Part shown: positions 255 to 60,714 of the stretch, piece by piece | Numbering within the stretch: position 1 is the first letter of the stretch | How the letters are laid out: each line of letters opens with the position of its first letter | Assembly: GCA_043825615.1 (NCBI GenBank) | Contig: JBDRRS010000003.1 | Coordinates: 125,379 to 189,378, forward strand | DNA from: a bacterium | Lineage (GTDB): Bacteria > CG03 | Length of the DNA: 64,000 nucleotides | Direction of reading: 5' to 3' | Position numbers and translations under genes: made by a program | Notes under the pieces: model-generated | Databases searched by the model: none | Told to the model about the DNA's origin: nothing | Seen by the model: only the letters and a program-made list of their open reading frames with translations

Positions 255-265
255 CTAAAAGAACA

Positions 266-323
266 GGGACGGTTCTGATACTTTTTAGTATGGAAATAAA
301 AACCAGAACCGTCTCGGTTTTTT
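266..323 (+). repeat. intergenic hairpin element copy A (terminator-like: 10-bp stem GACGGTTCTG/CAGAACCGTC, conserved loop, U-tract)
   Basis: Perfect 10-bp inverted repeat read directly; loop GATACTTTTTAG...GAAA..AAAACC shared with copies D, E, G; followed by TCGGTTTTTT. Confidence 0.6.
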
Positions 324-354
324 GAAAAGGTTATTTTAAATAGGAGGATAAATT

Positions 355-7528: not shown

Positions 7529-7541
7529 AATGGAAAAGTAT

Positions 7542-7599
7542 GGGGATGGTTCTGATACTTTTTAGGATGGGAATGAAAACCGGAAGCGTCCCGGATTTT
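7542..7599 (+). repeat. intergenic hairpin element copy D
   Basis: GGGGATGGTTCTGATACTTTTTAGGATGGGAATGAAAACCGGAAGCGTCCCGGATTTT; outer stem GGGATG/CGTCCC compensates relative to copy A. Confidence 0.55.
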
Positions 7600-7619
7600 A
7601 CAAACAAAAGGAGGTCATT

Positions 7620-8196: not shown

Positions 8197-8211
8197 TGGT
8201 ACAACGAAGAA

Positions 8212-8275
8212 CGGGAACAGTTTTGATACTTTTTAGGATGAGAATTAAAAGCGGAAGAGCACCTGTGCTCTTTGC
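8212..8275 (+). repeat. intergenic hairpin element copy E (diverged 3' arm GAGCACCTGTGCTC)
   Basis: Shares GTTTTGATACTTTTTAGGATGAGAATTAAAAGCGGAAG with copies A and D. Confidence 0.45.
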
Positions 8276-13167: not shown

Positions 13168-13272
13168 TACGATATTGTAATAATTAAAAGCCGGAACGCA
13201 AAAAGTTCAAGGGAAGAGGCGGGTAACGGGGAGCGGGCCGGGGCTTTGCAATAAAAGAAAGGGTAAAAGAAA

Positions 13273-13359
13273 GGGGACGGTTCTAATACTTTTTGGGCGG
13301 GGCAAAATAAGAAACACCGTTGGTTTCGGGGAAATGTCATATTGTAAAGCACCGTCCCC
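13273..13359 (+). repeat. intergenic hairpin element copy G (outside the AT-rich island)
   Basis: GGGGACGGTTCTAATACTTTTTGGG...; distal complement CACCGTCCCC at 13350-13359; upstream of ankyrin gene. Confidence 0.45.
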
Positions 13360-13382: not shown

Positions 13383-14426
13383 ATGAAGAGAATCTTTAGG
13401 TTTGGAACCGTTGTTATTCTGCCGTTCATTTACTCCGTCGTTTATTGTTACGCATCAAGCGAGGAGTTATTAACGGCGATAAGGGACGGTGATATAGAAC
13501 AGGTCAATGCATTAATTCAGGCCGGTACCGATATCAACGCCAATGACGAAACCGGCTGGATAACGCCGCTGATGCAGGCGGCTTTTACCGATTCTTTTTA
13601 TATAACGAAGTTACTGATAGAAAACGGAGTGGATGTCAACGCTAGAAATAATTCCGGCTTTACGGCGCTGATATTTGCGGTCGCCGAAAAATCCCTTGTT
13701 GTTGCAAGGCTTCTTATAGAAGCCGGCGCGAATGTTAATGTTAAAGGCGATAACGGTCTGACGCCGCTGATGGTAGGCGCTTTGAACCAGTCATACGCTC
13801 TGGTAAATTTACTGCTTGAAAAAGGAGCTGATATCAATCTCAAAAACAGCGAAGGAAAGACGGTAATAAAGCTGGCCGGAGAAAAAGGCTATGATAAAAT
13901 AGTCGCCCTGCTTGAGAGTTACAGAGAGTTAAAAACTGTTAAGGAGGTTCCTGTAACAGCCCCGAAAGAGCCCAGCCCCGCGCCCTTCAATCCGCTGGCG
14001 GAGTGGGCCACCGGCAGGGGATGGATTGGAAAGGATATCAAACTGATAAATGCCGCCCGGGGGAATTCTCTGGAAGCGGTAAAATCGCTGATAAAGGAAG
14101 AGGTTGATATCAATGCCGTGACCAGAACCGGGACGACGGCGCTGATGTGGGCGGCTTTTCACAATTCTCCGGATATTGCGGGGCTGCTGCTTGAAAAGGG
14201 CGCCGACGTCAATCTTAAAAATAATAACGGAATGACGGCGCTGATATTCGCTGCGGGCGCGAATTCTCTGGCCATGGCAAAATTACTGCTTGAAAAAGGG
14301 GCGGATATGGAAGCGGTGAGCGTTCACGGCGTAACGTCTTTGATAGCGGCGGACACTAACGGTTATGAAGAAATGAGAATTTTTCTGACGAAGTATAAGG
14401 GGAAACGTAATGAATTTTCTTATTAG
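13383..14426 (+). CDS. ankyrin repeat protein with signal peptide
   Basis: Repeated TPLM.AA...LLLE.GADVN ankyrin units. Confidence 0.8.
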   Translation: MKRIFRFGTVVILPFIYSVVYCYASSEELLTAIRDGDIEQVNALIQAGTDINANDETGWITPLMQAAFTDSFYITKLLIENGVDVNARNNSGFTALIFAVAEKSLVVARLLIEAGANVNVKGDNGLTPLMVGALNQSYALVNLLLEKGADINLKNSEGKTVIKLAGEKGYDKIVALLESYRELKTVKEVPVTAPKEPSPAPFNPLAEWATGRGWIGKDIKLINAARGNSLEAVKSLIKEEVDINAVTRTGTTALMWAAFHNSPDIAGLLLEKGADVNLKNNNGMTALIFAAGANSLAMAKLLLEKGADMEAVSVHGVTSLIAADTNGYEEMRIFLTKYKGKRNEFSY

Positions 14427-16503
14427 GCCGTCCCGTCCGTCGTCGGCGGGAGCCCTTCTCGGGGTTTCGCTCTTATTTTTAATCGTCCCTGAAGTTAAGG
14501 CGGAGGTCTGGACAACTTATACAAACGCCACGACCGTCGGCGGGCTCGTTAATAACAATGTTCATGTAATAGTAATAGACGGAAACAATAAATGGTTCGG
14601 AACAAACACCGGCGTGAGCAAATTCGACGGGGAAGTCTGGAAGTCCTATACAACCGGAGACGGCCTTGCCAAAAGCAATGTCCGGGCGATAGCAATAAGC
14701 GGAAACGGAAGTAAATGGTTCGGATTCGGAAGTTCAGGGGGCGGCGTAAGCATGTTAGATGTGACTGAACAAGTTTGGGAAACCTATACGACTGCGGATG
14801 GGCTTGTTAGTAATGTTGTTTATGCAATAGCGATAGACGGAAACGATAAATGGTTCGGCACGAGCGGAGGTGCGTGTAAGTATGGCGAATCGGGATGGAG
14901 CACCTATACGGCTACGAATAGCGGTCTTGTCTATAACAGTGTCACGGCAATAGCGATAGACGGCAGCGGTAATAAATGGTTCGGCACGGGCCAGGGCGTA
15001 AGCGTGTTAGACGCGGCTGAACAATCATGGAATTCCTATACGACTGCAAACAGTGGAATTGTTAATAATTATATCCAGGCGATGGCGATAGACGGAAACG
15101 ATAAATGGTTCGGCGCTTATAATGCCGGCGTGAGCAGTTTTGACGGAGAGAACTGGACGACTTATACAAAACCCCCGGCCGGCGGCGGTCTTGTTGATAA
15201 TAATATTCTGGCAATAGCAATAGACGGCAGCGGTAATAAATGGTTCGGCACGAGCGGCGGAGTGAGCAAGTTTAACGGGAATGAATGGATAACCTATAAA
15301 ACTGCCGATGGCCTTGCCGATGATTATGTCCAGGCAATAGCGATAGACGGGGACGGTAATAAATGGTTCGGAACAAGCAGCGGAGTGAGCAGGTTTGATG
15401 ATATCGGCATCAGCGGCGGTATTACGGACACTGAAGATGCGGGCATGAACGGGGTAACGGTAAATCTTACGGGAGCGGAAACAAGGACGGCGACAACAAC
15501 TGCCGACGGAAATTATCAGTTCAGCGACCTCACGCCGGGCAATTACATAATAACTCCGGTTAAAAGCGGTTATACATTCCTGCCGGTTTCCATCAGCACG
15601 GGTTCTCTCGCCGGCGACCTCGTGGAGCAGAATTTTACCGGGGACAGACCGCCGAACGTTCCCGCCGTCGTAACGCCGCTGGACGGAGCAGTTGATGTTT
15701 CAACCGGAACGGCGCTTACCTGGACGGGCGGGGACCCCGACACGGGCGATACGGTGACTTATGACGTTTATTTTTCCTCTTTTTCGCCGCCTTCCTTCAA
15801 AATAAATCAATCAGGCGCGACATATAACCCCGGCGGATTGGACAATAATACGACGTATTACTGGAAAATCGTCGCAAAGGATTCTTACGACGTGGAAACG
15901 GCCGGGCCGGCATGGTCTTTTGTAACGGGGGATATCCCGTTTCCCGTTTATTACATCAAAGGTTACATAAAAGATTCCGGTGAGGAAGGAGTAAGCGGGG
16001 TGACGGTAGAACTTACTGGAGCCGCTGAAGGTTCTGCGGCTACGGATTCATCCGGGTATTATGAATTTACAAATCTGGCGTCGGGAAATTATGCGGTGAC
16101 TCCTTCAAGCGCGGGATGTTTGTTTGCGCCGCCGAACTGGATATATTCCCCGCTGGCCTCCAATCAGGGCGGGCAGGATTTCCACATTGCCGGAATACTT
16201 ACGGGCGAAGGGAACGTTGAGGTCAGGGGAGGGCCAAAGGGTTATATAAAACTGAGCAAGGGCGAAAAGGCCGAGATAATCATGAGGCCGGTGACATCCG
16301 GGCTGGTCACAATCAAAATTTATACTCTGCGGAAAAAACTCGTCTGGAAAAAAGAAATTTATGTAACGGGAGGAACGCAGCCGCTGCCAGTGGTATGGGA
16401 ATGTAAAAATACAGGGTCGGAGCAGGTCGCTTCGGGAACTTATATAGCGCATATAAAAGGAGCGGGATACAACGAAAAGAAATATATTGTTGTCGTCAGG
16501 TAA
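14410..16503 (+). CDS. secreted two-component-regulator-propeller (Reg_prop) repeat protein with carboxypeptidase-regulatory-like domains and T9SS-type C-terminal domain
   Basis: About nine repeats of V.AIAIDGNNKWFGT..GVS; GNY..TP.KSGYTF (CarboxypepD_reg-like); C-terminal SGTYIAHIKGAGYNEKKYIVVVR resembles T9SS/FlgD-Ig sorting domain. Confidence 0.65.
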   Translation: MNFLIRPSRPSSAGALLGVSLLFLIVPEVKAEVWTTYTNATTVGGLVNNNVHVIVIDGNNKWFGTNTGVSKFDGEVWKSYTTGDGLAKSNVRAIAISGNGSKWFGFGSSGGGVSMLDVTEQVWETYTTADGLVSNVVYAIAIDGNDKWFGTSGGACKYGESGWSTYTATNSGLVYNSVTAIAIDGSGNKWFGTGQGVSVLDAAEQSWNSYTTANSGIVNNYIQAMAIDGNDKWFGAYNAGVSSFDGENWTTYTKPPAGGGLVDNNILAIAIDGSGNKWFGTSGGVSKFNGNEWITYKTADGLADDYVQAIAIDGDGNKWFGTSSGVSRFDDIGISGGITDTEDAGMNGVTVNLTGAETRTATTTADGNYQFSDLTPGNYIITPVKSGYTFLPVSISTGSLAGDLVEQNFTGDRPPNVPAVVTPLDGAVDVSTGTALTWTGGDPDTGDTVTYDVYFSSFSPPSFKINQSGATYNPGGLDNNTTYYWKIVAKDSYDVETAGPAWSFVTGDIPFPVYYIKGYIKDSGEEGVSGVTVELTGAAEGSAATDSSGYYEFTNLASGNYAVTPSSAGCLFAPPNWIYSPLASNQGGQDFHIAGILTGEGNVEVRGGPKGYIKLSKGEKAEIIMRPVTSGLVTIKIYTLRKKLVWKKEIYVTGGTQPLPVVWECKNTGSEQVASGTYIAHIKGAGYNEKKYIVVVR

Positions 16504-18684: not shown

Positions 18685-19848
18685 TTAAAATTGGGTTTTA
18701 CGCACAATTCTCGTAAAAGGAGAATCAATAAGTTCCTGGTCTGCCATCCGGAGCCGTTCTATAAGCGCCGAAATAAAAGCCCTGTAAAATTTTACGGCGA
18801 TGTCCTGGCGGCTGTTGAAAAGATTATCCAGAGAGTCCCTGTCAATTTTGAAAAGAACCGAATCTGCCGCCGCCTGAGCGCTGCCGCTGCGCGGTATGTT
18901 TATAAGAAGAGCCATTTCCCCGAAAAATTCGCCGGGATGGATAAATGCAAGGAATTTCTCCTTCTTTGCGCCCTCCTGCCCTATCGTCTTGAATATTTTT
19001 ATCTTTCCTTCGAAAACAACGTAGAAATTGTTGCCGGCGGCGCCTTCGGAAAAAATAACGGACCCGGCCGGCGCTTTAAATTTTTTTCCGGTTCTTTGAA
19101 CATAGATGAGTTCTTCGGCGTTAAATTCGGAAAATACGCTGAGATTTTTGAGGACGAGCAGATTTCCGGTGTATTCCTCGATGTCATCGCTCTCGGCGGA
19201 GGTTATGCCGGCAAACCTGAAAGCCGTGTGCCAGTGCTCTCCCATATCGGCATCCCGTATCTTTACGCCGCGGAGGTTGAATTGTTTTCCCTCTTCGAGA
19301 GAAAACGTTATCCGGTAAGATTCGGAATCAGGAATACGCTTTTCCGTTTTGACGGAAATGCCTCCGGCGGACAGGTTTCTCAAAGTGCCTTCCGTCTTCG
19401 TGCCGGCCTCGGATATTGCCACCGGCGTTTTCACGGATATTCGCAGGTGTTTTCTTTTGTCGTCCTTGATTTTCCCTATTTTAACTGAGCCGAAGTCCGT
19501 CTGCTTACGCGGCAGCACGCTTTCAGCCCATGTTTTTTTCAGCGCCTCGGCCAGTTTTTCTTTGAAAAACATTGTCGTTTTATACGAAACGATGTCTTTG
19601 GAAAAAATGAAAACCGGAAGTTTGCCCGTCTCTGTCTTTCTGAATTTATTAAAGTCAGGGTCTTTGAACAGGTGCTTGGTATCGGAGGAAAGAATTATCA
19701 GAGACGGCGGGTTATCAGTTATGTTTTTTTTGAGATTAATCCATTCCGCCACTTCGCGAAAGTTGAGTTCAAATTCCTTCAGGCATTCTTTGATAAAAGA
19801 AAAAAGTTCTCTGTTCTTTCCTAAAAAAACGATGTTATAATTCTTCAC
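18685..19848 (-). CDS. PilZ domain / cyclic-nucleotide-binding domain protein
   Basis: RKHLR...NLSAGG (PilZ RxxxR / D/NxSxxG); C-terminal FGEMALL...RSGSAQAAADS (cNMP-binding). Confidence 0.7.
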   Translation of the reverse strand: MKNYNIVFLGKNRELFSFIKECLKEFELNFREVAEWINLKKNITDNPPSLIILSSDTKHLFKDPDFNKFRKTETGKLPVFIFSKDIVSYKTTMFFKEKLAEALKKTWAESVLPRKQTDFGSVKIGKIKDDKRKHLRISVKTPVAISEAGTKTEGTLRNLSAGGISVKTEKRIPDSESYRITFSLEEGKQFNLRGVKIRDADMGEHWHTAFRFAGITSAESDDIEEYTGNLLVLKNLSVFSEFNAEELIYVQRTGKKFKAPAGSVIFSEGAAGNNFYVVFEGKIKIFKTIGQEGAKKEKFLAFIHPGEFFGEMALLINIPRSGSAQAAADSVLFKIDRDSLDNLFNSRQDIAVKFYRAFISALIERLRMADQELIDSPFTRIVRKTQF

Positions 19849-19890
19849 AATTCTATTATATCAATATATCAATTTCCTGCAAGCACGGGT

Positions 19891-19941
19891 CCAAGCATGG
19901 GGTCATCCAAGCATGGGGTCCATGCATCCAAGCATGGGGTC
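19891..19941 (+). repeat. tandem repeat, three copies of CCAAGCATGGGGTC
   Basis: Read directly: copies at 19891, 19907, 19928. Confidence 0.7.
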
Positions 19942-19956
19942 AGGTCTTGCAATGCA
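19936..19956 (+). repeat. REP-like element GGGGTCAGGTCTTGCAATGCA (forward)
   Basis: Same 18-mer at 35744 and inverted at 20006 and 36612. Confidence 0.7.
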
Positions 19957-20005
19957 ACAGTTATTGAAGGAAATTGAGGAGTTTATGAAGGAAATTAATG
20001 TGTTA

Positions 20006-20023
20006 ATGCAAGACCTGACCCCC
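20006..20023 (-). repeat. REP-like element (inverted copy), with 19936-19956 forms a REP doublet
   Basis: ATGCAAGACCTGACCCCC is the reverse complement of the REP core; ~50 bp from the partner. Confidence 0.7.
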
Positions 20024-20024
20024 A

Positions 20025-20828
20025 CTATGACCCCACTATTTTGAGCATTTGTTTGTGGAGAAGCATGTTGCTGCAGAGAATTGTTTTGTCTTTATTTTCA
20101 TACTTTCCGTCAATTGATATTTCTTTTCCCGAATAGTCCGTGACTTTTCCTCCCGCTTCCTCTATCAGGATTTTCCCGGCGCCGGTGTCCCACGGGAACA
20201 AACCTTCCTCCCAGAAACCGTCAAACCTTCCGCAGGCGACATACGCCATATCAAGGGTGGCCGAACCCGGTCTTCTGATGCCCTGGGCGTTTACGACAAA
20301 TTTTTTGAATAACTCGACCGTTCTCAGGGGGTTTTTCCATACGTAATAAGGGAACCCCGTGGAAATAAGGGCTCTTTTCATTTTCTTTATGCCGGAGACC
20401 TTTATTTTCTTCCCGTTGAGAAAAGAGCCCTTCCCCGCCGCAGCAAAAAAGATTTCCCCGTTCGCCGGATTGTAAGTTACGCCGATAACAGGCGTTCCGT
20501 TCCTGACGAGGGAGACGCTCACCGCCCACATTCTGCCGCCGTGCGAGTAGTTGACGGTCCCGTCTATAGGGTCAATGACCCACATCGTTTCCTTTATTTT
20601 CTGAAAGGTTCTCTCCTCGCACAGGAAACCGGCGCTGCAGAGTTTGGAGAGTTCTTTGACGAGGAATTTTTCGCATCTTTTATCAGCGTCGGTTACGGGA
20701 TTGATTCGCCCCTTGTATTCGATACGGATTTTTTTTTGTCCGGCCTGCGCAAGGCGGCCGGCTTTTACGAGGACGGGCAGAACCTGTTTGAGTATTTTGC
20801 CGTAATTGATAATTCTATTTTTTGACAA
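20025..20828 (-). CDS. inositol monophosphatase family protein
   Basis: WVIDPIDGT and FPWDTGAG motifs. Confidence 0.85.
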   Translation of the reverse strand: MSKNRIINYGKILKQVLPVLVKAGRLAQAGQKKIRIEYKGRINPVTDADKRCEKFLVKELSKLCSAGFLCEERTFQKIKETMWVIDPIDGTVNYSHGGRMWAVSVSLVRNGTPVIGVTYNPANGEIFFAAAGKGSFLNGKKIKVSGIKKMKRALISTGFPYYVWKNPLRTVELFKKFVVNAQGIRRPGSATLDMAYVACGRFDGFWEEGLFPWDTGAGKILIEEAGGKVTDYSGKEISIDGKYENKDKTILCSNMLLHKQMLKIVGS

Positions 20829-34543: not shown

Positions 34544-35096
34544 CTTTTATCCTCTCACAAATTTTTTCGGAAACTTCACGCGTGTAAGGCATTTTTCTCT
34601 CCGGGAAATCAACAGGGTTGCCGAATTTAACGGAAAACCTTTTAAGGTTTTTCCATTCGTTTGTCCCTTTTATGAAGACGGGAATAACCGGTTTTTCCGT
34701 GCGGTAAATAATATAAGACACGGCTCGCCGTATCTTTTTGACTTTGCCGTCGCCCGTTTTATTCCTTGTACCCTCGGGAAACACGAGTAAATTTTTACCG
34801 GAATTCACTATTTCCACGGCTTTTCTGAATGCGCTCCTGTCAAAAAGATTTCTGTCCACGGGAAAAGCGCCGAGTTTTTTCAGAAAAAATGCGATTACAG
34901 GGTTATAAAAAAGTTCTTTCTTCGCCATAAAATGAAGTCTCCGGAACGTTGAAGCCGCTATTACGGGAGGGTCACAGTTGGAAAGGTGGTTTGAGCAGAG
35001 AATTACGCCTCCTCCGGGGATGATGCCTGAAACTTTCAGCCGGAAAAAAATTCCTCCGGCAAACAGGGACAAAACCCATGCAATCAAATAAATCAT
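34518..35096 (-). CDS. plsC: 1-acyl-sn-glycerol-3-phosphate acyltransferase
   Basis: NHLSNCD (NHxxxxD) and FPEGTR motifs. Confidence 0.8.
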   Translation of the reverse strand: MIYLIAWVLSLFAGGIFFRLKVSGIIPGGGVILCSNHLSNCDPPVIAASTFRRLHFMAKKELFYNPVIAFFLKKLGAFPVDRNLFDRSAFRKAVEIVNSGKNLLVFPEGTRNKTGDGKVKKIRRAVSYIIYRTEKPVIPVFIKGTNEWKNLKRFSVKFGNPVDFPERKMPYTREVSEKICERIKDGIEKNAR

Positions 35097-35764
35097 TTTT
35101 TCCCGCTTTTTTCTGCAACCTCTTTTATAATGATGTCCGCAACTTCTTCAATGCTTTTGTTCGTTGAATCTATCACCGTCGCCCCCGCCGGAATTTTCAG
35201 CGGGCAGAGCCCCCTTGTTTTGTCAATGTTGTCTCTTTTGTTTATGTCGGCTATGATGCGCTCTAAAATCTGCGGGTTTCCTTTTTCCTTTAATTCCAGA
35301 AATCTTCTTTTCGCTCGTTCGCTAATGCTGGCGTCGAGATAAAACTTAAATCGGGCGCGAGGGAACACGACCGTTCCGATGTCGCGGCCTTCCATGACCA
35401 CGCCCGATTTTTCCGCAAATTGCCGCTGCATGTCGCGGAGAATCCGGCGGACTTCCCCGCTTGCCGCCGTTATGGAAGTGCGGTTCGTAACGGTTCTCGA
35501 CCTGATTTTGCGGGAGACGTCCTCCCCGTCCAGTAATATTTTCTGTTTATCGAACCGTATTCTGGAACCTGCGGCGATTCCGCACATTTTTTTCGGATCC
35601 GTCATGTCGATTTTATTTTTCAGCGCCTTGTATGTTACCGCCCTGTACATTGCGCCTGTGTCTATATAGGTTAAGCCGAGTTTCTCTGCCACGATGCGGG
35701 CTATCGTGCTCTTCCCCGCCCCCGCCGGCCCGTCTATTGTAATGGGGTCAGGTCTTGCAATCAT
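35093..35764 (-). CDS. cmk: cytidylate kinase (annotated start lies inside REP-like repeat; true start uncertain)
   Basis: ITIDGPAGAGKST P-loop typical of Cmk; first codons ATGATTGCAAGACCTGACCCC coincide with REP core. Confidence 0.85.
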   Translation of the reverse strand: MIARPDPITIDGPAGAGKSTIARIVAEKLGLTYIDTGAMYRAVTYKALKNKIDMTDPKKMCGIAAGSRIRFDKQKILLDGEDVSRKIRSRTVTNRTSITAASGEVRRILRDMQRQFAEKSGVVMEGRDIGTVVFPRARFKFYLDASISERAKRRFLELKEKGNPQILERIIADINKRDNIDKTRGLCPLKIPAGATVIDSTNKSIEEVADIIIKEVAEKSGKK

Positions 35765-36629
35765 ACATTTTCTCTATGCGCCGTAATCTGCGGCTCACTG
35801 TAGCATAATGCACGCCAAGATATTCCGCTATTTCTTTCATACAGTACCTGTATTTTTCATAGGCTTCCACTATGGCATTATCACTGTTCTTTCTCAATAT
35901 CACCCTCAGCGGTTTACGCTTTGGTTCCTGCTGAATCCTCGGTATTTCTTTAATCCTTTCTTTTTTCGATATTTTTTTGATAAATTTATCATCACCGTAA
36001 TATATCTGCCCTTTTAATTTTTCCCATACCGTTTTACCCACTCCCTCTTTAACAAACTTATAATATTTTTCTACCCCTTTTTTTTGATTATTGTCGAACT
36101 GCTTTAATATCCAATCTGTCGTCAGCCAATCCGGGCACTCTTCCAATCCCAGCATTGCCCGATACGCGCTCCATTTCCAATCTTCAACCCTTTTTACTAT
36201 CCCTGCTCGCACTGAATTCAACACTATATATCTGCTTAGTTCCAGTAAATGCTCATTTTTCTGCACAACTATTGCTTTATATCTGCCCTGAAACAAATGC
36301 CCAACACGGCTATGCATCTTGTTAAACCGCTGTGTATACACTCCATTTAACTGCCGCATTCCTCCTGATAAATTACCTTCAGGCGTCTCTACCAATAAAT
36401 GATAATGATTGGTCATCAAATTATATGAATGGCATAACCATTTATAACGCTTTATCGTTTTTTCAAGTATCCGCAGGAACTCTTTACGGTCACTGTCATT
36501 GTAATATATACTCCGCTTTGCGTTACCTCGTGCTGTAATATGGTATATTGCCCCGGGATATTCTATTCTTAGCGGCCTAGCCATATTTCAACTTACCTTT
36601 TATTTTGTTGCATTGCAAGACCTGACCCC
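35744..36629 (-). mobile_element. REP-flanked RAYT unit inserted between aroA and cmk
   Basis: GGGGTCAGGTCTTGCAAT at 35744-35761 and its reverse complement at 36612-36629 bracket the RAYT gene. Confidence 0.7.
35748..36584 (-). CDS. REP-associated tyrosine transposase (IS200-like Y1 HUH transposase family) with C-terminal HTH
   Basis: GAIYHITARGN, HuH motif NHYHLLV, GHLFQGRYK, ELSRYIVLNSVRAG; C-terminal HTH-like IAEYLGVHYATVSRRL. Confidence 0.85.
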   Translation of the reverse strand: MARPLRIEYPGAIYHITARGNAKRSIYYNDSDRKEFLRILEKTIKRYKWLCHSYNLMTNHYHLLVETPEGNLSGGMRQLNGVYTQRFNKMHSRVGHLFQGRYKAIVVQKNEHLLELSRYIVLNSVRAGIVKRVEDWKWSAYRAMLGLEECPDWLTTDWILKQFDNNQKKGVEKYYKFVKEGVGKTVWEKLKGQIYYGDDKFIKKISKKERIKEIPRIQQEPKRKPLRVILRKNSDNAIVEAYEKYRYCMKEIAEYLGVHYATVSRRLRRIEKMYDCKT

Positions 36630-37883
36630 TTCCAGGGTTTTCAGAAAACCGGGGAAAGAAACGGAGATGCTGTCTGCGTCATCTATCAGCGTGCTTCCGC
36701 GGGCTATCAGACCGGCGAGGGAAAGCATCATTGTTATCCTGTGGTCGCCGAAACTTCGTACGCCGGCGCCGGAAAGTTTTACCGGCCCGGAAATTTCAAA
36801 ACCGTCCTCTAATTTTTTTATTTTTGCGCCCATTTTTTTTAATTGGGAATAAGTCGCTTCAAGCCGGTCGCACTCTTTCACTTTCAATTCTCCGGCGCCT
36901 GTTATAACCGTTTTACCCTCCGCCTGTGTTGCGCACAGGGCAAGAAGCGGGATTTCATCAATCATCGCAGGAACGTCTTTTTCGGTAAATTCCGCCGCAC
37001 GGAGGGAGCTTTCCGCAACGATTATGTCCGCCACGGGCTCCAGACCGAAGAACTTCCTGTTAGTTATTTTATACCTCAGCCCCATTTTCCGGATGGCTTT
37101 TAAGAACCCCGTCCTCGTCGGGTTTATTCCGACTTCTTTTATTTTTAAGTTGCTTTTAAGGATTGCCGCCGCTGTTATGAAAAAAGACGCGGATGAAATA
37201 TCGCCGGGGATTTTTACTTCTGCGCTCTTCGGTTTCTGCCCGCCTTTTAATTCCACCCTGCCGGATTTTTTTGTTACTTTTACGCCGAAAAGCGGAAGCA
37301 TTCTTTCGGTGTGGTCGCGTGATTTTATTTTTTCGAAAATCTTCGTCGTGCCCGCGGCGTTGAGACCCGCCAGAAGAATGGACGTTTTTACCTGAGCGGA
37401 GGCGATGGGCATTCTGTAGGATATTGCCTTGAGTGTTTTTCCTTTTATAACAAGCGGCGGGAAACCGCTCCTGCTGATAATTTTTGCGCCCATCTTTTCC
37501 AGCGGCGCGGTGATTCTTTTCATAGGCCGGCGAGAGAGAGACCTGTCGCCCGTGAGGGTTGCCGAAACGGGCAGACCTGCAATCAGACCTGCGAGGAGAC
37601 GCATCGTCGTTCCGGAGTTCCCGCAGTATATTTCCTTTCCGGGCGTTTTGTAAGGGTGCCCTGTTATCAGAAGGTCGAAGCCCGATTTTTTTACGCCGGC
37701 TCCGAGCGAGGAAACCGCTTTCAGCGTCGAAAGAGTGTCGTCGCTTTTCAGAAAATTTTTAATTCTTGAAGTTCCTGAAGCAGTCGAGGAAATAATTACC
37801 GCTCTGTGCGAAATGGATTTATCCGGCGGGACTCTTATTTCACCTGATATTCTTTTTACGGGTCTTATTCTCAAACCCTTCAT
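36600..37883 (-). CDS. aroA: 3-phosphoshikimate 1-carboxyvinyltransferase (EPSP synthase)
   Basis: GNSGTTMRLLAGL motif; length 427 aa; last codons overlap REP-like repeat. Confidence 0.9.
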   Translation of the reverse strand: MKGLRIRPVKRISGEIRVPPDKSISHRAVIISSTASGTSRIKNFLKSDDTLSTLKAVSSLGAGVKKSGFDLLITGHPYKTPGKEIYCGNSGTTMRLLAGLIAGLPVSATLTGDRSLSRRPMKRITAPLEKMGAKIISRSGFPPLVIKGKTLKAISYRMPIASAQVKTSILLAGLNAAGTTKIFEKIKSRDHTERMLPLFGVKVTKKSGRVELKGGQKPKSAEVKIPGDISSASFFITAAAILKSNLKIKEVGINPTRTGFLKAIRKMGLRYKITNRKFFGLEPVADIIVAESSLRAAEFTEKDVPAMIDEIPLLALCATQAEGKTVITGAGELKVKECDRLEATYSQLKKMGAKIKKLEDGFEISGPVKLSGAGVRSFGDHRITMMLSLAGLIARGSTLIDDADSISVSFPGFLKTLEGVRSCNATK

Positions 37884-60390: not shown

Positions 60391-60406
60391 TTTGCCTCCT
60401 GTTATA

Positions 60407-60714
60407 CTTACTCACTCGCATATAATTCTCGATTGTTCAGCTCAAGAAGGGGAAGTTTCCCCTTATTGTGCTCCGAATCGTCCTCAGGCGGACAATTCTC
60501 CGCGGTCATCCCCTCCAAAGGTAAAGGATGGTTGCTTTCACGAGCATACTTATAGACTTACTCACTCGCATATAATTCTCGATTGTTCAGCTCAATAGGG
60601 GGGATTTGCCCCCCTGCTACGCATTGTGCCCCGGGCAACCGCTTCCCAGCGCACTCGTCGCTTGTCCCCCCCCCCATAAGGTAAAGGACGGTTGTTTTCA
60701 CGATCATACTTTTA
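60407..60714. repeat. tandem duplication (2 units, ~150 and ~158 bp) immediately upstream of rho
   Basis: Unit starts CTTACTCACTCGCATATAATTCTCGATTGTTCAGCTCAA at 60407 and 60557; unit ends AAGGTAAAGGA[T/C]GGTTG[C/T]TTTCACGA[G/T]CATACTT; internal hairpins covary (AGGGGAAgTTCCCCT vs GGGGGGatttgCCCCCC). Confidence 0.8.

What the first reader, a model, noticed from the sequence alone, without database searches (positions are those of the whole stretch)
19891..20023. REP doublet plus 14-bp tandem repeat in the PilZ/IMPase intergenic region
Two inverted copies of the 18-mer GGGGTCAGGTCTTGCAAT (19936-19956 forward, 20006-20023 reverse) are separated by ~50 bp and can form a long hairpin, preceded by three tandem CCAAGCATGGGGTC units. 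The same 18-mer flanks the RAYT gene at 35.7-36.6 kb, so these are the cognate REP sequences, here in a BIME-like doublet abutting the IMPase stop codon.
Basis: seen in the sequence. Interest (0 to 1): 0.5.

Follow-up and report, generated by a model that had tools for sequence, protein, structure and literature searches.

The report
Miniature copy of a tyrosine-transposase element
The 87-bp hairpin between the inositol-phosphatase and PilZ genes is a gene-less miniature copy of a small mobile element (a "TIRtron") whose full copy lies 16 kb away; this element type is known but little studied, and its ends turn out to be identical in many bacterial phyla.

Summary
GGGGTCAGGTCTTGCAAT occurs at 19936-19953(+), 20005-20022(-, 1 mismatch), 35744-35761(+) and 36612-36629(-).

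These are the cognate ends of the Y1 (HUH) transposase gene at 35748-36584. They are not REP/BIME elements: there is no GTAG foot and no single-unit palindrome. They match the TIRYT/"TIRtron" class (Di Nocera 2013; TnpAY1 subclass 2.1, Quentin 2018): a GGGGWSAS terminal inverted repeat (TIR), a C-terminal HTH, and a gene stop inside the 3' TIR.

Element 19936-20022 is an 87-bp miniature carrying both ends. Relatives have only 12 nt between the IMPase and PilZ genes, and an intact aroA/cmk overlap where the full element sits. Both are therefore lineage-specific insertions.

The 16-18-nt TIR is exact in at least 119 genome contigs from about 14 phyla, while the transposases share only 45-61% identity.

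The "14-bp tandem repeat" is a family-wide feature. Short duplications spanning the flank/TIR junction occur at 38 of 370 ends, against about 0.3% of control positions. Their inner boundary is most often after GGGGTCA, which is a candidate cleavage site (inference).

Verdict: new member of a known kind, moderate interest.

The parts
19936..20022 (.). 87-bp miniature TIRtron: a TIR doublet with no coding capacity, consisting of a 16-bp perfect terminal stem plus a 55-nt interior.
   Evidence: DNA fold z = -6.1. Absent from relatives L150 and L151, where IMPase and PilZ are 12 nt apart. Its size lies within the 44-300 bp range of doublets elsewhere.
19936..19959 (+). Gene-proximal-type (5') TIR, GGGGTCAGGTCTTGCAATGCAACA.
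   Evidence: 24/24 identical to the reverse complement of 36606-36629 (pair I5). The same 24-mer is found in at least 120 metagenome contigs.
19997..20022 (-). Gene-distal-type (3') TIR, GGGGTCAGGTCTTGCATTAACACATT on the minus strand.
   Evidence: 23/26 identical to 35744-35769 (pair I7; alignment A1).
19880..19942 (+). Left junction duplications. Units of TCCAAGCATGGGGTC(A) lie at 19890-19905, 19906-19920 and 19927-19942 (the true junction), with a degenerate copy at 19880-19891 and a 6-nt spacer at 19921-19926.
   Evidence: WIN row. The sequence is absent from the empty site of relatives.
20016..20038 (-). Right junction duplication: TGACCCCCACTA (20016-20027, true junction) followed by TGACCCCACTA (20028-20038). 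The unit is TAGT + GGGGTCA on the minus strand. The IMPase stop codon TAG (20025-20027) lies at the start of the inner flank copy (TAGT); the outer copy encodes the last IMPase residues (..VGS).
   Evidence: GGGGTCA on the minus strand at 20016 and 20028. Relatives end IMPase differently...MLKIISGN* versus MLKIVGS* in the window.
35744..36629 (-). Full-length 886-bp TIRtron, bounded by inverted 18-mers and inserted at the aroA/cmk junction.
   Evidence: Relatives L152 and L154 have an aroA TGA overlapping the cmk ATG and no element.
35748..36584 (-). TIRYT gene, 278 aa. It has an N-terminal Y1 HUH domain (H60-Y-H62, Y119) and a C-terminal HTH. The ATG lies 45 nt inside the 5' TIR end. The stop codon TGA lies inside the 3' TIR, 4 nt from the element end.
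   Evidence: Pfam Y1_Tnp 1.4e-14 and HTH_23 4e-5. NCBIfam REP_Tyr_transpos 79.8 against a cut-off of 80. Invariant HUH and Tyr residues in 59 homologues. AF2 model pLDDT 85. Best PDB fold match is 4ER8 TnpAREP, TM 0.75.
36606..36629 (-). 5' TIR of the full element. Together with the next 6 nt it encodes the last 9 residues of aroA and its stop codon (GVRSCNATK*).
35744..35769 (+). 3' TIR of the full element. It contains the ATG now used by cmk (35764-35762) and codes for MIARPDP.

Best explanation
The 87-bp inverted doublet at 19936-20022 is a miniature, non-autonomous derivative of a 'TIRtron'. A TIRtron is a small element made of a RAYT-like Y1 (HUH) tyrosine transposase gene with a C-terminal HTH (a TIRYT), bounded by terminal inverted repeats that begin GGGGWSAS. 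The autonomous copy is at 35744-36629. The miniature keeps both ends and little else.

Shown:
- Both copies are insertions specific to this lineage.
- The ends are the same sequence.
- The first 16 nt of the end are invariant across very distant bacteria whose transposases have diverged to about 50% identity.
- Miniature doublets with different flanks accumulate in some genomes.

Inferred:
- The TIRYT recognises the invariant 16-mer (plus a conserved ACA at positions 22-24) at each end.
- It nicks and rejoins single-stranded DNA through Tyr119, as its structural relatives TnpAREP and IS608 TnpA do.
- It thereby moves both the full element and the miniature in trans. In the miniature the two ends can pair as a hairpin.

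The short repeats on both sides of the miniature (TCCAAGCATGGGGTCA x3 and TAGTGGGGTCA x2) are duplications of the flank/TIR junction. Such duplications recur across the family, and their inner edge is most often after TIR nucleotide 7 (GGGGTCA|GG). I read them as scars of transposase nicking at or near that position, followed by mis-joining or fill-in repair. This last step is speculative.

No host function is needed to explain the element. Its insertion replaced the last residues of IMPase and added about 150 nt ahead of the PilZ gene.
For: Identity of the ends:
- The 18-mer occurs 4 times against 0.06 expected.
- 24/24 and 23/26 matches link the miniature to the two ends of the full element.

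Protein:
- Y1_Tnp plus a weak HTH_23 match.
- HUH and Tyr119 are invariant in 59 homologues.
- The AF2 model has pLDDT 85. Its best solved match is 4ER8, E. coli TnpAREP on a REP hairpin (E = 2e-7, TM 0.75), followed by the ISDra2 and IS608 transposases.

Class:
- The literature defines TIRYT/TIRtron by TIRs carrying GGGGWSAS, by TIRs that overlap the gene's 3' end, and by TIR copies found singly, as dimers or in groups (PMC3733652).
- Subclass 2.1 carries HTH_23 or Bac_DnaA_C and has no REPs (PMC6006769).

Insertion polymorphism:
- Relatives L150 (IMPase 86% identical) and L151 have 12 nt between IMPase and PilZ, where the window has about 176 nt.
- Relatives L152 and L154 (aroA 89% and 82% identical) have an aroA/cmk ATGA overlap and no element. 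L153 (93% identical) also lacks any TIR at the aroA end.

Family breadth:
- The 24-mer occurs in at least 120 metagenome contigs.
- 16 of 121 loci have a TIRYT homologue (32-60% aa identity; 45-60% for the full-length hits) in the stretch; in 14 it abuts the TIR.
- Three TIRYT homologues chosen by protein alone (55-58% identity) all carry the exact 16-mer starting 46 nt upstream of the ATG.

Mobility of miniatures elsewhere:
- L026 has five near-identical 55-nt doublets with different left flanks in 7.4 kb.

Junction duplications:
- 29 of 193 ends against 8 of 3660 controls in the genome set.
- 9 of 177 ends against 11 of 3600 controls in the independent metagenome set.
- The inner boundary is at 7 nt in 15 of 38 cases and at 6-8 nt in 22 of 38.
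Against: - No experiment shows that any TIRYT cleaves or moves DNA.
- Only one miniature is visible in 64 kb. Its interior 24-mer has no match in the metagenome collection, so there is no sign that this particular miniature has multiplied.
- Outside the TIRs its interior resembles the resident full element only patchily. It is therefore not a recent derivative of that copy.
- There is no target-site duplication and no clear conserved target motif. The flank shows only a weak AAY preference.
- The full element replaced 35-50 nt of host DNA rather than inserting cleanly.
- The +7 boundary could reflect which partial copies survive rather than where the enzyme cuts.
- No excision footprints of the form GGGGTCA...TGACCCC were found in 1.4 Mb of loci.
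- The genome-wide copy number in the source organism was not measurable.
Confidence: 0.75

Rival explanations
1. In-situ relic. A full-length TIRtron once inserted between IMPase and PilZ and later lost its gene by internal deletion. The 87-bp doublet never moved as a miniature and is now inert.
For: The loop 24-mer has 0 matches in metagenomes. Only one doublet is present in 64 kb. The doublet carries one 5'-type and one 3'-type end, as an internal deletion would leave. The sub-terminal 15-20 nt resemble the TIRYT 5' leader and 3' coding end.
Against: Miniatures of 44-96 bp with different flanks are common elsewhere and clearly multiply in some genomes (L026; sizes). The sequence divergence from the resident full copy does not say where the deletion happened. 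This rival changes the history, not the identity of the element.
Confidence: 0.3
2. Canonical REP/BIME-RAYT (REPIN) system. The 18-mer would be a REP, the doublet a REPIN, the gene a domesticated RAYT, and the genome would hold tens to hundreds of copies.
For: A Y1 gene is flanked by inverted copies of the repeat and a hairpin-forming doublet lies elsewhere. The closest solved fold is TnpAREP. The NCBIfam REP_Tyr_transpos match scores 79.8.
Against: There is no GT[AG]G or CGTC foot. A single unit is not palindromic. The NCBIfam score is below the cut-off of 80. The C-terminal HTH and the GGGGWSAS TIR place the gene in TIRYT / subclass 2.1, in which REPs are not found. REP sequences are lineage-specific, whereas this end is identical across phyla. 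Copy density in the window is low.
Confidence: 0.08
3. Host regulatory hairpin. The structure would have evolved as a terminator, attenuator or mRNA-stabilising element between IMPase and PilZ.
For: The minus-strand RNA folds strongly (-67 kcal/mol for 221 nt, z = -3.3). It lies between two co-directional genes.
Against: There is no U-tract and no terminator-like site. No Rfam family matches. The structure is absent from relatives, whose two genes are 12 nt apart. The same ends bound a transposase gene. Any effect on expression would be a side effect of insertion.
Confidence: 0.04
4. Chance similarity, or a purely local duplication between 19.9 kb and 36 kb.
For: Only four copies are present in the window.
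Against: 0.06 copies are expected by chance. The same sequence occurs in hundreds of unrelated contigs.
Confidence: 0.01

Closest known systems
TIRtrons / TIRYT (TIR-associated tyrosine transposases; Di Nocera et al. 2013, PMC3733652), which probably correspond to TnpAY1 subclass 2.1 (Quentin et al. 2018, PMC6006769)
   Same: A RAYT-like Y1 HUH protein with a C-terminal HTH. The gene is bounded by non-palindromic terminal inverted repeats that begin GGGGWSAS (here GGGGTCAG). The 3' TIR overlaps the gene end. Extra TIR copies occur as a dimer elsewhere in the genome.
   Different: Nothing that defines the class differs. The published descriptions give only the 8-nt motif and 26 examples. They do not report the exact 16-24-nt conservation across phyla, insertion polymorphism, or junction duplications.
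REPtron / REPIN-RAYT systems (E. coli TnpAREP, PDB 4ER8; Pseudomonas REPINs)
   Same: A Y1 HUH enzyme of the same fold (best PDB match, TM 0.75). The gene is flanked by inverted copies of a short repeat. Inverted doublets able to form a hairpin are the presumed mobile unit. The transposase gene is usually single-copy.
   Different: REPs are self-palindromic units of 20-40 nt with a GT[AG]G foot and are lineage-specific. Here the unit is not palindromic, starts GGGG, and is identical across phyla. The protein has an extra HTH domain. Copy number in the window is low.
IS200/IS605 insertion sequences (IS608, ISDra2)
   Same: The Y1 HUH catalytic domain (fold matches with TM 0.6-0.69). The expected single-strand nick-and-join chemistry. 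No target-site duplication.
   Different: IS200/IS605 elements have different sub-terminal hairpins at their left and right ends and no terminal inverted repeats. They insert 3' of a fixed 4-5-nt target. Here there are TIRs and no conserved target, although one lineage (L026) shows ACTCC next to one end in 4 of 5 copies.
Classical bacterial MITEs (RUP, Correia/NEMIS, ERIC, Nezha)
   Same: Size of 44-300 bp, TIRs, no coding capacity, intergenic location, a hairpin in transcripts, and derivation from an autonomous element by internal deletion.
   Different: Classical MITEs are moved by DDE transposases and carry target-site duplications. Here the partner enzyme is a tyrosine HUH enzyme. The flanks are not duplicated across the element; instead each junction is locally duplicated.

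Membership tests
TIRtron / TIRYT (Di Nocera 2013) | RAYT-like Y1 transposase with an HUH motif and a catalytic Tyr | tested here: met
   Pfam Y1_Tnp E = 1.4e-14. H60-Y-H62 and Y119 are invariant in 59 homologues. Fold match to 4ER8, IS608 and ISDra2.
TIRtron / TIRYT (Di Nocera 2013) | Gene flanked by terminal inverted repeats unrelated to GTAG REPs | tested here: met
   Inverted 18-mers at 35744-35761 and 36612-36629. No GTAG is present, and single ends are not self-folding.
TIRtron / TIRYT (Di Nocera 2013) | TIR carries the GGGGWSAS motif (true of the majority of TIRYTs) | tested here: met
   The TIR starts GGGGTCAG. The motif is quoted.
TIRtron / TIRYT (Di Nocera 2013) | Additional TIR copies in the genome as single, dimeric or grouped units | tested here: met
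   One dimer at 19936-20022 within 64 kb. The whole-genome count was not obtainable.
TnpAY1 subclass 2.1 (Quentin 2018) | C-terminal helix-turn-helix extension (HTH_23, HTH_28 or Bac_DnaA_C) | tested here: inconclusive
   HTH_23 scores 23.7 bits (E = 4e-5) at residues 238-270, below the gathering score of 24.6. Homologues carry precomputed PF13384 and PF13936 hits. The model shows three C-terminal helices at 235-276.
TnpAY1 subclass 2.1 (Quentin 2018) | Membership of the authors' MCL cluster or tree clade | not testable with these tools
REP / BIME with RAYT (REPtron, REPIN) | The repeat unit is itself an imperfect palindrome (a stem-loop of 20-40 nt) | tested here: not met
   The isolated ends of the full element fold no better than shuffles, z = -0.4 to -1.4. 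Only a 4-bp TTGC/GCAA stem is possible, and only in the 5' TIR.
REP / BIME with RAYT (REPtron, REPIN) | Conserved GT[AG]G (or CGTC) tetranucleotide at the foot of the hairpin | tested here: not met
   The ends start GGGG. The flanks are CAT, AAT, GAA and AGT. The definition is quoted.
REP / BIME with RAYT (REPtron, REPIN) | Protein passes the curated RAYT model | tested here: not met
   NCBIfam NF047646 REP_Tyr_transpos scores 79.8 bits against a cut-off of 80. This is a marginal miss.
REP / BIME with RAYT (REPtron, REPIN) | High copy number of extragenic repeats (tens to hundreds per genome) | not testable with these tools
   Only 64 kb of the source genome is held, with 4 TIRs.
REP / BIME with RAYT (REPtron, REPIN) | Inverted doublet able to form a long hairpin (REPIN geometry) | tested here: met
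   16-bp perfect stem, z = -6.1.
IS200/IS605 | Distinct sub-terminal hairpins at the left and right ends, and no terminal inverted repeats | tested here: not met
   The ends are inverted repeats without their own hairpins.
IS200/IS605 | Insertion 3' of a fixed tetra- or pentanucleotide target | tested here: not met
   The flank composition of 186 ends shows only a weak AAY preference. The four window flanks differ from one another.
Classical (DDE-type) MITE | Target-site duplication flanking the element | tested here: not met
   The left flank ...CCAAGCAT and the right flank ACTAT... are unrelated. The empty site in relatives shows no duplicated host sequence.

The most novel reading that the evidence does not exclude
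TIRtrons with the GGGGTCAGGTCTTGCA end are not domesticated RAYT relatives. They are one active, horizontally spreading Y1-transposon family present across most bacterial phyla, with an essentially invariant 16-nt recognition end. The recurrent junction duplications, whose inner edge falls after GGGGTCA, mark the enzyme's cleavage position and point to a transposition or repair pathway different from both IS200/IS605 and REP/RAYT. One possibility is two cleavage sites per end with unequal strand transfer. Another is a staggered break that is filled in.
Probability: 0.3. Interest if true: 0.65.

Novelty: new member of a known kind. Interest (0 to 1): 0.45.

Why it matters
For annotation, this intergenic hairpin should be labelled as a miniature TIRtron, not as a REP/BIME or a terminator. 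It explains the altered IMPase C-terminus and the unusual 176-nt spacer before the PilZ gene.

For the field, TIRYT elements have been described only bioinformatically, in two papers, with no evidence of activity. This locus gives two dated insertions, because the empty sites survive in relatives with 82-93% identical neighbouring proteins. It also shows a recognition end that stays identical while the enzyme diverges to about 50% identity. Finally, it yields a concrete and cheaply testable prediction for the nick site, around GGGGTCA|GG. That makes the question of whether and how these RAYT-like enzymes move DNA directly testable in vitro.

Tried and rejected
1. Hypothesis that the full element split a fused aroA-cmk gene. 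Removing 35744-36629 does leave an in-frame join. It was rejected because the closest aroA homologues are 421-424 aa and unfused, with an ATGA overlap to cmk. The element replaced 35-50 nt of that junction instead.

2. Exact-protein look-ups of the TIRYT and cmk found nothing. The aroA look-up found a 100% identical Logan contig, SRR26275509. The source is therefore a MAG-like assembly. The IMPase and aroA homologues place it near Elusimicrobiota, but only at 61-65% identity to named MAGs.

3. A metagenome scan with the miniature's interior 24-mer gave 0 hits, so there is no evidence that this exact miniature multiplied.

4. A sequence search of the PDB gave no hit. A structure prediction followed by Foldseek was needed.

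5. Rfam searches of the region and of the whole window found no family. The terminator scan found none.

6. A search for excision footprints (GGGGTCA, 0-8 nt, TGACCCC) in 1.4 Mb of loci found none. One GGGGTCTGACCCC in L146 is uninterpretable.

7. A planned covariation test of the hairpin beyond the 16-bp stem was dropped. Arm positions 19-21 are variable and frequently not complementary between the two arms, because the 5'-type and 3'-type ends differ. The extended stem is therefore not a conserved feature.

8. No further TIR copies, allowing up to 4 mismatches, were found in the window or in about 37 kb of relatives' contigs.
Full report
**What is in the sequence**

The 18-mer GGGGTCAGGTCTTGCAAT occurs four times in the window:
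- 19936-19953 (+)
- 20005-20022 (-, one mismatch)
- 35744-35761 (+)
- 36612-36629 (-)

Dinucleotide-preserving shuffles give 0.06 matches on average.

The two arms at 19.9 kb are 51 nt apart and pair perfectly over 16 bp. Element 19936-20022, 87 nt long, folds as single-stranded DNA at -17.6 kcal/mol. Shuffles give -6.3 +/- 1.8, so z = -6.1.

CCAAGCATGGGGTC is present at 19891, 19907 and 19928. The spacing is 16 and 21 nt. The third copy is the real flank/repeat junction, and a degenerate copy precedes them at 19880-19891.

The flanking genes are as described:
- Gene 20025-20828(-) is an inositol-monophosphatase-family protein.
- Gene 18685-19848(-) is a PilZ + cNMP-binding protein.

Both are on the minus strand. 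The element lies 2 nt after the IMPase stop codon.

**The partner locus**

Between the two copies at 35.7-36.6 kb lies a 278-aa ORF, 35748-36584(-). Its features:
- Pfam Y1_Tnp domain, E = 1.4e-14.
- A sub-threshold C-terminal HTH_23 match: 23.7 bits against a cut-off of 24.6.
- NCBIfam REP_Tyr_transpos scores 79.8 bits, just under the cut-off of 80.
- H60-Y-H62 and Y119 are invariant in an alignment of 59 homologues.
- An AlphaFold model has mean pLDDT 85 and pTM 0.74.
- The best solved match of the model is 4ER8, E. coli TnpAREP bound to a REP hairpin (E = 2e-7, TM 0.75 on the target, 18% identity). The ISDra2 and IS608 transposases follow.
- A plain sequence search of the PDB found nothing.

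The element is 886 bp and very compact:
- The ATG is 45 nt inside the outer end of the 5' repeat.
- The stop codon TGA lies inside the 3' repeat, 4 nt from the element end.

The miniature at 19.9 kb carries one end of each type. Its left arm is 24/24 identical to the gene-proximal end. Its right arm is 23/26 identical to the gene-distal end. The adjacent 15-20 nt resemble the TIRYT leader and 3' coding end only patchily.

**What kind of element it is**

A single arm has no self-complementarity. The isolated ends fold no better than shuffles. There is no GT[AG]G or CGTC foot. These are therefore not REPs by the definitions used in the literature.

They do match a class described by Di Nocera et al. 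2013 (PMC3733652):
- RAYT-like genes flanked by terminal inverted repeats (TIRs) rather than REPs. The authors called them TIRtrons, encoding TIRYTs.
- Many of the TIRs share GGGGWSAS. Here the TIR starts GGGGTCAG.
- Some TIRs overlap the 3' end of the gene.
- Extra TIR copies are found singly, as dimers or in groups.

Quentin et al. 2018 (PMC6006769) place 20 of those 26 TIRYTs in TnpAY1 subclass 2.1. That subclass is defined by a C-terminal HTH (HTH_23, HTH_28 or Bac_DnaA_C), and no REPs could be found for it.

Only those two papers in the searchable library mention TIRYT. None holds this sequence in a relevant context. No later functional study turned up.

**Both copies are insertions**

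The source is an uncultured bacterium:
- The window is 100% identical to a Logan contig from SRR26275509 over 7.3 kb.
- The TIRYT equals an NCBI 'MAG: transposase [bacterium]' protein on a 252-kb contig.
- The best named homologues of IMPase and aroA are Elusimicrobia MAGs, at 61-65% identity.

The IMPase/PilZ site is empty in relatives. A JGI contig (L150) whose IMPase is 86% identical, and a second relative (L151), have IMPase and PilZ separated by 12 nt: AAAATA-ATTTCCGG-AAATTGATATAAT. The window has about 176 nt there. The extra DNA is the 87-bp doublet plus the junction repeats. As a result, the last IMPase residues differ: MLKIVGS* in the window against MLKIISGN* in L150.

The aroA/cmk site is also empty in relatives. 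Relatives with 89% and 82% identical aroA have the aroA TGA overlapping the cmk ATG. A 93% relative also lacks any TIR at the aroA end.

In the window the 886-bp element replaces about 35-50 nt of that junction. Its ends now supply:
- the last nine codons and stop of aroA (GVRSCNATK*)
- the ATG and first residues of cmk (MIARPDP)

My initial idea that the element split a fused aroA-cmk gene is rejected by these data.

**How widespread the end is**

| Search | Result |
|---|---|
| Viral contigs, 16-mer | One contig (L026) with twelve TIRs in 7.4 kb |

The genome hosts span about 14 phyla: Pseudomonadota, Nitrospirota, Actinomycetota, Acidobacteriota, Gemmatimonadota, Methylomirabilota, Desulfobacterota, Omnitrophota, Elusimicrobiota, Patescibacteria, Chlorobiota, Bipolaricaulota, Poribacteria and Nitrospinota. 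GC content ranges from 31% to 73%.

Inverted pairs are 44-300 bp long, mostly 50-90. A second size class of 750-1000 bp contains the gene.

Sixteen of 121 loci have a TIRYT homologue (32-60% identical to the window's protein; 45-60% for the full-length hits); in 14 it abuts the TIR.

Those loci were selected by the repeat itself, so I made an unbiased check. Three TIRYT homologues were chosen by protein alone (55-58% identity; one from Bipolaricaulota). All three carry the exact 16-mer starting 46 nt upstream of the ATG. The window's spacing is 45 nt.

The nearest non-identical TIRYT among 5.8 billion proteins is only 61% identical, and more than 8000 homologues score E < 1e-10. The recognition end is therefore far more conserved than the enzyme. 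Beyond position 18 the only conserved feature is ACA at positions 22-24.

**The 'tandem repeat' is a family trait**

In many loci a short segment spanning the flank/TIR junction is duplicated just outside the element. For example, L062 reads tcaagtGGGGTCA-tcaagtGGGGTCAGG...

I required an exact partial copy, with at least 4 nt of flank and at least 5 nt of TIR, within 60 nt outside the end.

| Set | Ends with a junction duplication | Random control positions |
|---|---|---|
| Genome loci | 29 of 193 | 8 of 3660 |
| Metagenome loci (independent, de-duplicated) | 9 of 177 | 11 of 3600 |

The flank part is 4-15 nt. The TIR part is 7 nt in 15 of the 38 cases and 6-8 nt in 22 of 38. The remaining cases reach 9-34 nt into the TIR.

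Both ends of the window's miniature show the pattern:
- TCCAAGCAT+GGGGTCA on the left
- TAGT+GGGGTCA on the right

The protein-selected locus L275 shows it too. None of this sequence exists in the relatives' empty site.

**Mechanism: what is shown and what is inferred**

Shown:
- The identity of the ends.
- The lineage-specific insertions.
- The cross-phylum invariance of the end.
- The accumulation of miniatures with different flanks in some genomes.
- The enrichment of junction duplications and their modal boundary.

Inferred from the fold and from established knowledge of Y1 HUH enzymes (IS608, ISDra2, TnpAREP):
- The TIRYT binds the 16-mer at each end.
- It nicks single-stranded DNA through Tyr119 and rejoins strands.
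- It moves the full element, and the miniature in trans.
- The 16-bp stem of the miniature would present both ends together.

Speculative: the modal boundary GGGGTCA|GG marks the nick. The duplications would then arise in one of two ways. One is unequal strand transfer between this site and a second site 5-10 nt outside the TIR. The other is fill-in of a staggered break.

Points against, or limits:
- No TIRYT biochemistry exists.
- There is no target-site duplication, and only a weak AAY flank preference.
- One lineage (L026) has ACTCC next to one end in 4 of 5 copies.
- No excision footprints were found.
- The interior of the miniature has no other copy in the metagenome collection.
- The full element's insertion was accompanied by loss of host DNA.

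**Rival explanations**

- A canonical REP/BIME system fails two defining tests: a palindromic unit and a GTAG foot.
- A host regulatory hairpin is unlikely. There is no U-tract or terminator-like site, and no Rfam family matches. The structure is also absent from relatives.
- The most serious alternative concerns history, not identity. The doublet may be an in-situ deletion remnant of a full copy that never moved as a miniature. I cannot exclude this.

**Verdict**

The finding is real and is explained as a miniature TIRtron, cognate to the TIRYT element 16 kb away. It is a new member of a known but poorly studied kind.

The by-products of this check may interest transposon specialists and are directly testable:
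- the invariant 16-nt end across phyla
- two dated insertions
- a recurrent junction duplication whose boundary falls after GGGGTCA

Noticed in passing
window 35744-36629 with aroA 36600-37883(-) and cmk 35093-35764(-): The full TIRtron sits exactly in the aroA/cmk junction. Relatives have an aroA TGA overlapping the cmk ATG. In the window about 35-50 nt of that junction are gone. The element's ends now encode the last 9 residues and stop of aroA, and the start codon and first 7 residues of cmk. The TIRYT ORF overlaps the new cmk start by 17 nt, so aroA, TIRYT and cmk form one tight co-directional block.
   Followed up: yes
window 19857-19873: An 8-bp tandem duplication (TTGATATA x2 on the minus strand) lies just upstream of the PilZ GTG start. 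Relatives L150 and L151 have a single copy. It lies in a TGnTATAAT-like stretch.
   Followed up: partly
window 257-327, 7534-7604, 8205-8275, 13265-13335: A second dispersed repeat family of about 70 nt, 62-82% identical. It looks like a long hairpin (GGGACGGTTCTG...CAGAACCGTCTC) followed by a T-run. It is unrelated to the TIR family.
   Followed up: no
window 60394-60462 and 60544-60612: A 69-nt direct repeat (86% identical), 150 nt apart. Each copy ends in a G/C-rich hairpin (GGGGAAGTTTCCCC and GGGGGGATTTGCCCCC). No Rfam family matches.
   Followed up: no
L026 (IMGVR_UViG_3300029286_003067), whole 7.4 kb: A contig filed as viral holds five 55-nt TIR doublets plus extra arms, twelve TIRs in all. 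Four of the five doublets have GGAGT immediately after one end, and two are fused to another palindrome (GGTGGGCTCAGCCCACC). This suggests a lineage-specific target or a composite repeat.
   Followed up: partly
metagenome loci L156, L163, L176, L198, L244, L265, L268 and L158, L173, L179, L227, L242, L259: The same 24-nt TIR is followed by conserved sequence that is neither a TIRYT gene nor a nearby partner arm. Several sub-families share more than 80 nt. These may be longer MITE-like derivatives of 200-300 bp, as at L270 13525-13764, or elements with other cargo.
   Followed up: no
window 36586-36618 and the TIRYT leaders of L275, L276 and L277 (about 1462-1500): The TIR contains TTGCAA or TTGCAT. 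In all four full elements examined this is followed 17 nt later by a TAnnnT-like (or CAnAnT) hexamer, just before the TIRYT start codon. This could be an inward-facing promoter whose -35 box lies in the TIR. It was judged by eye only.
   Followed up: no
window 14500-15420 and 13550-14310: Runs of 123-135-nt and 99-nt in-frame coding repeats (families D1 and D3-D13), consistent with tandem protein repeat domains. They are unrelated to the finding.
   Followed up: no
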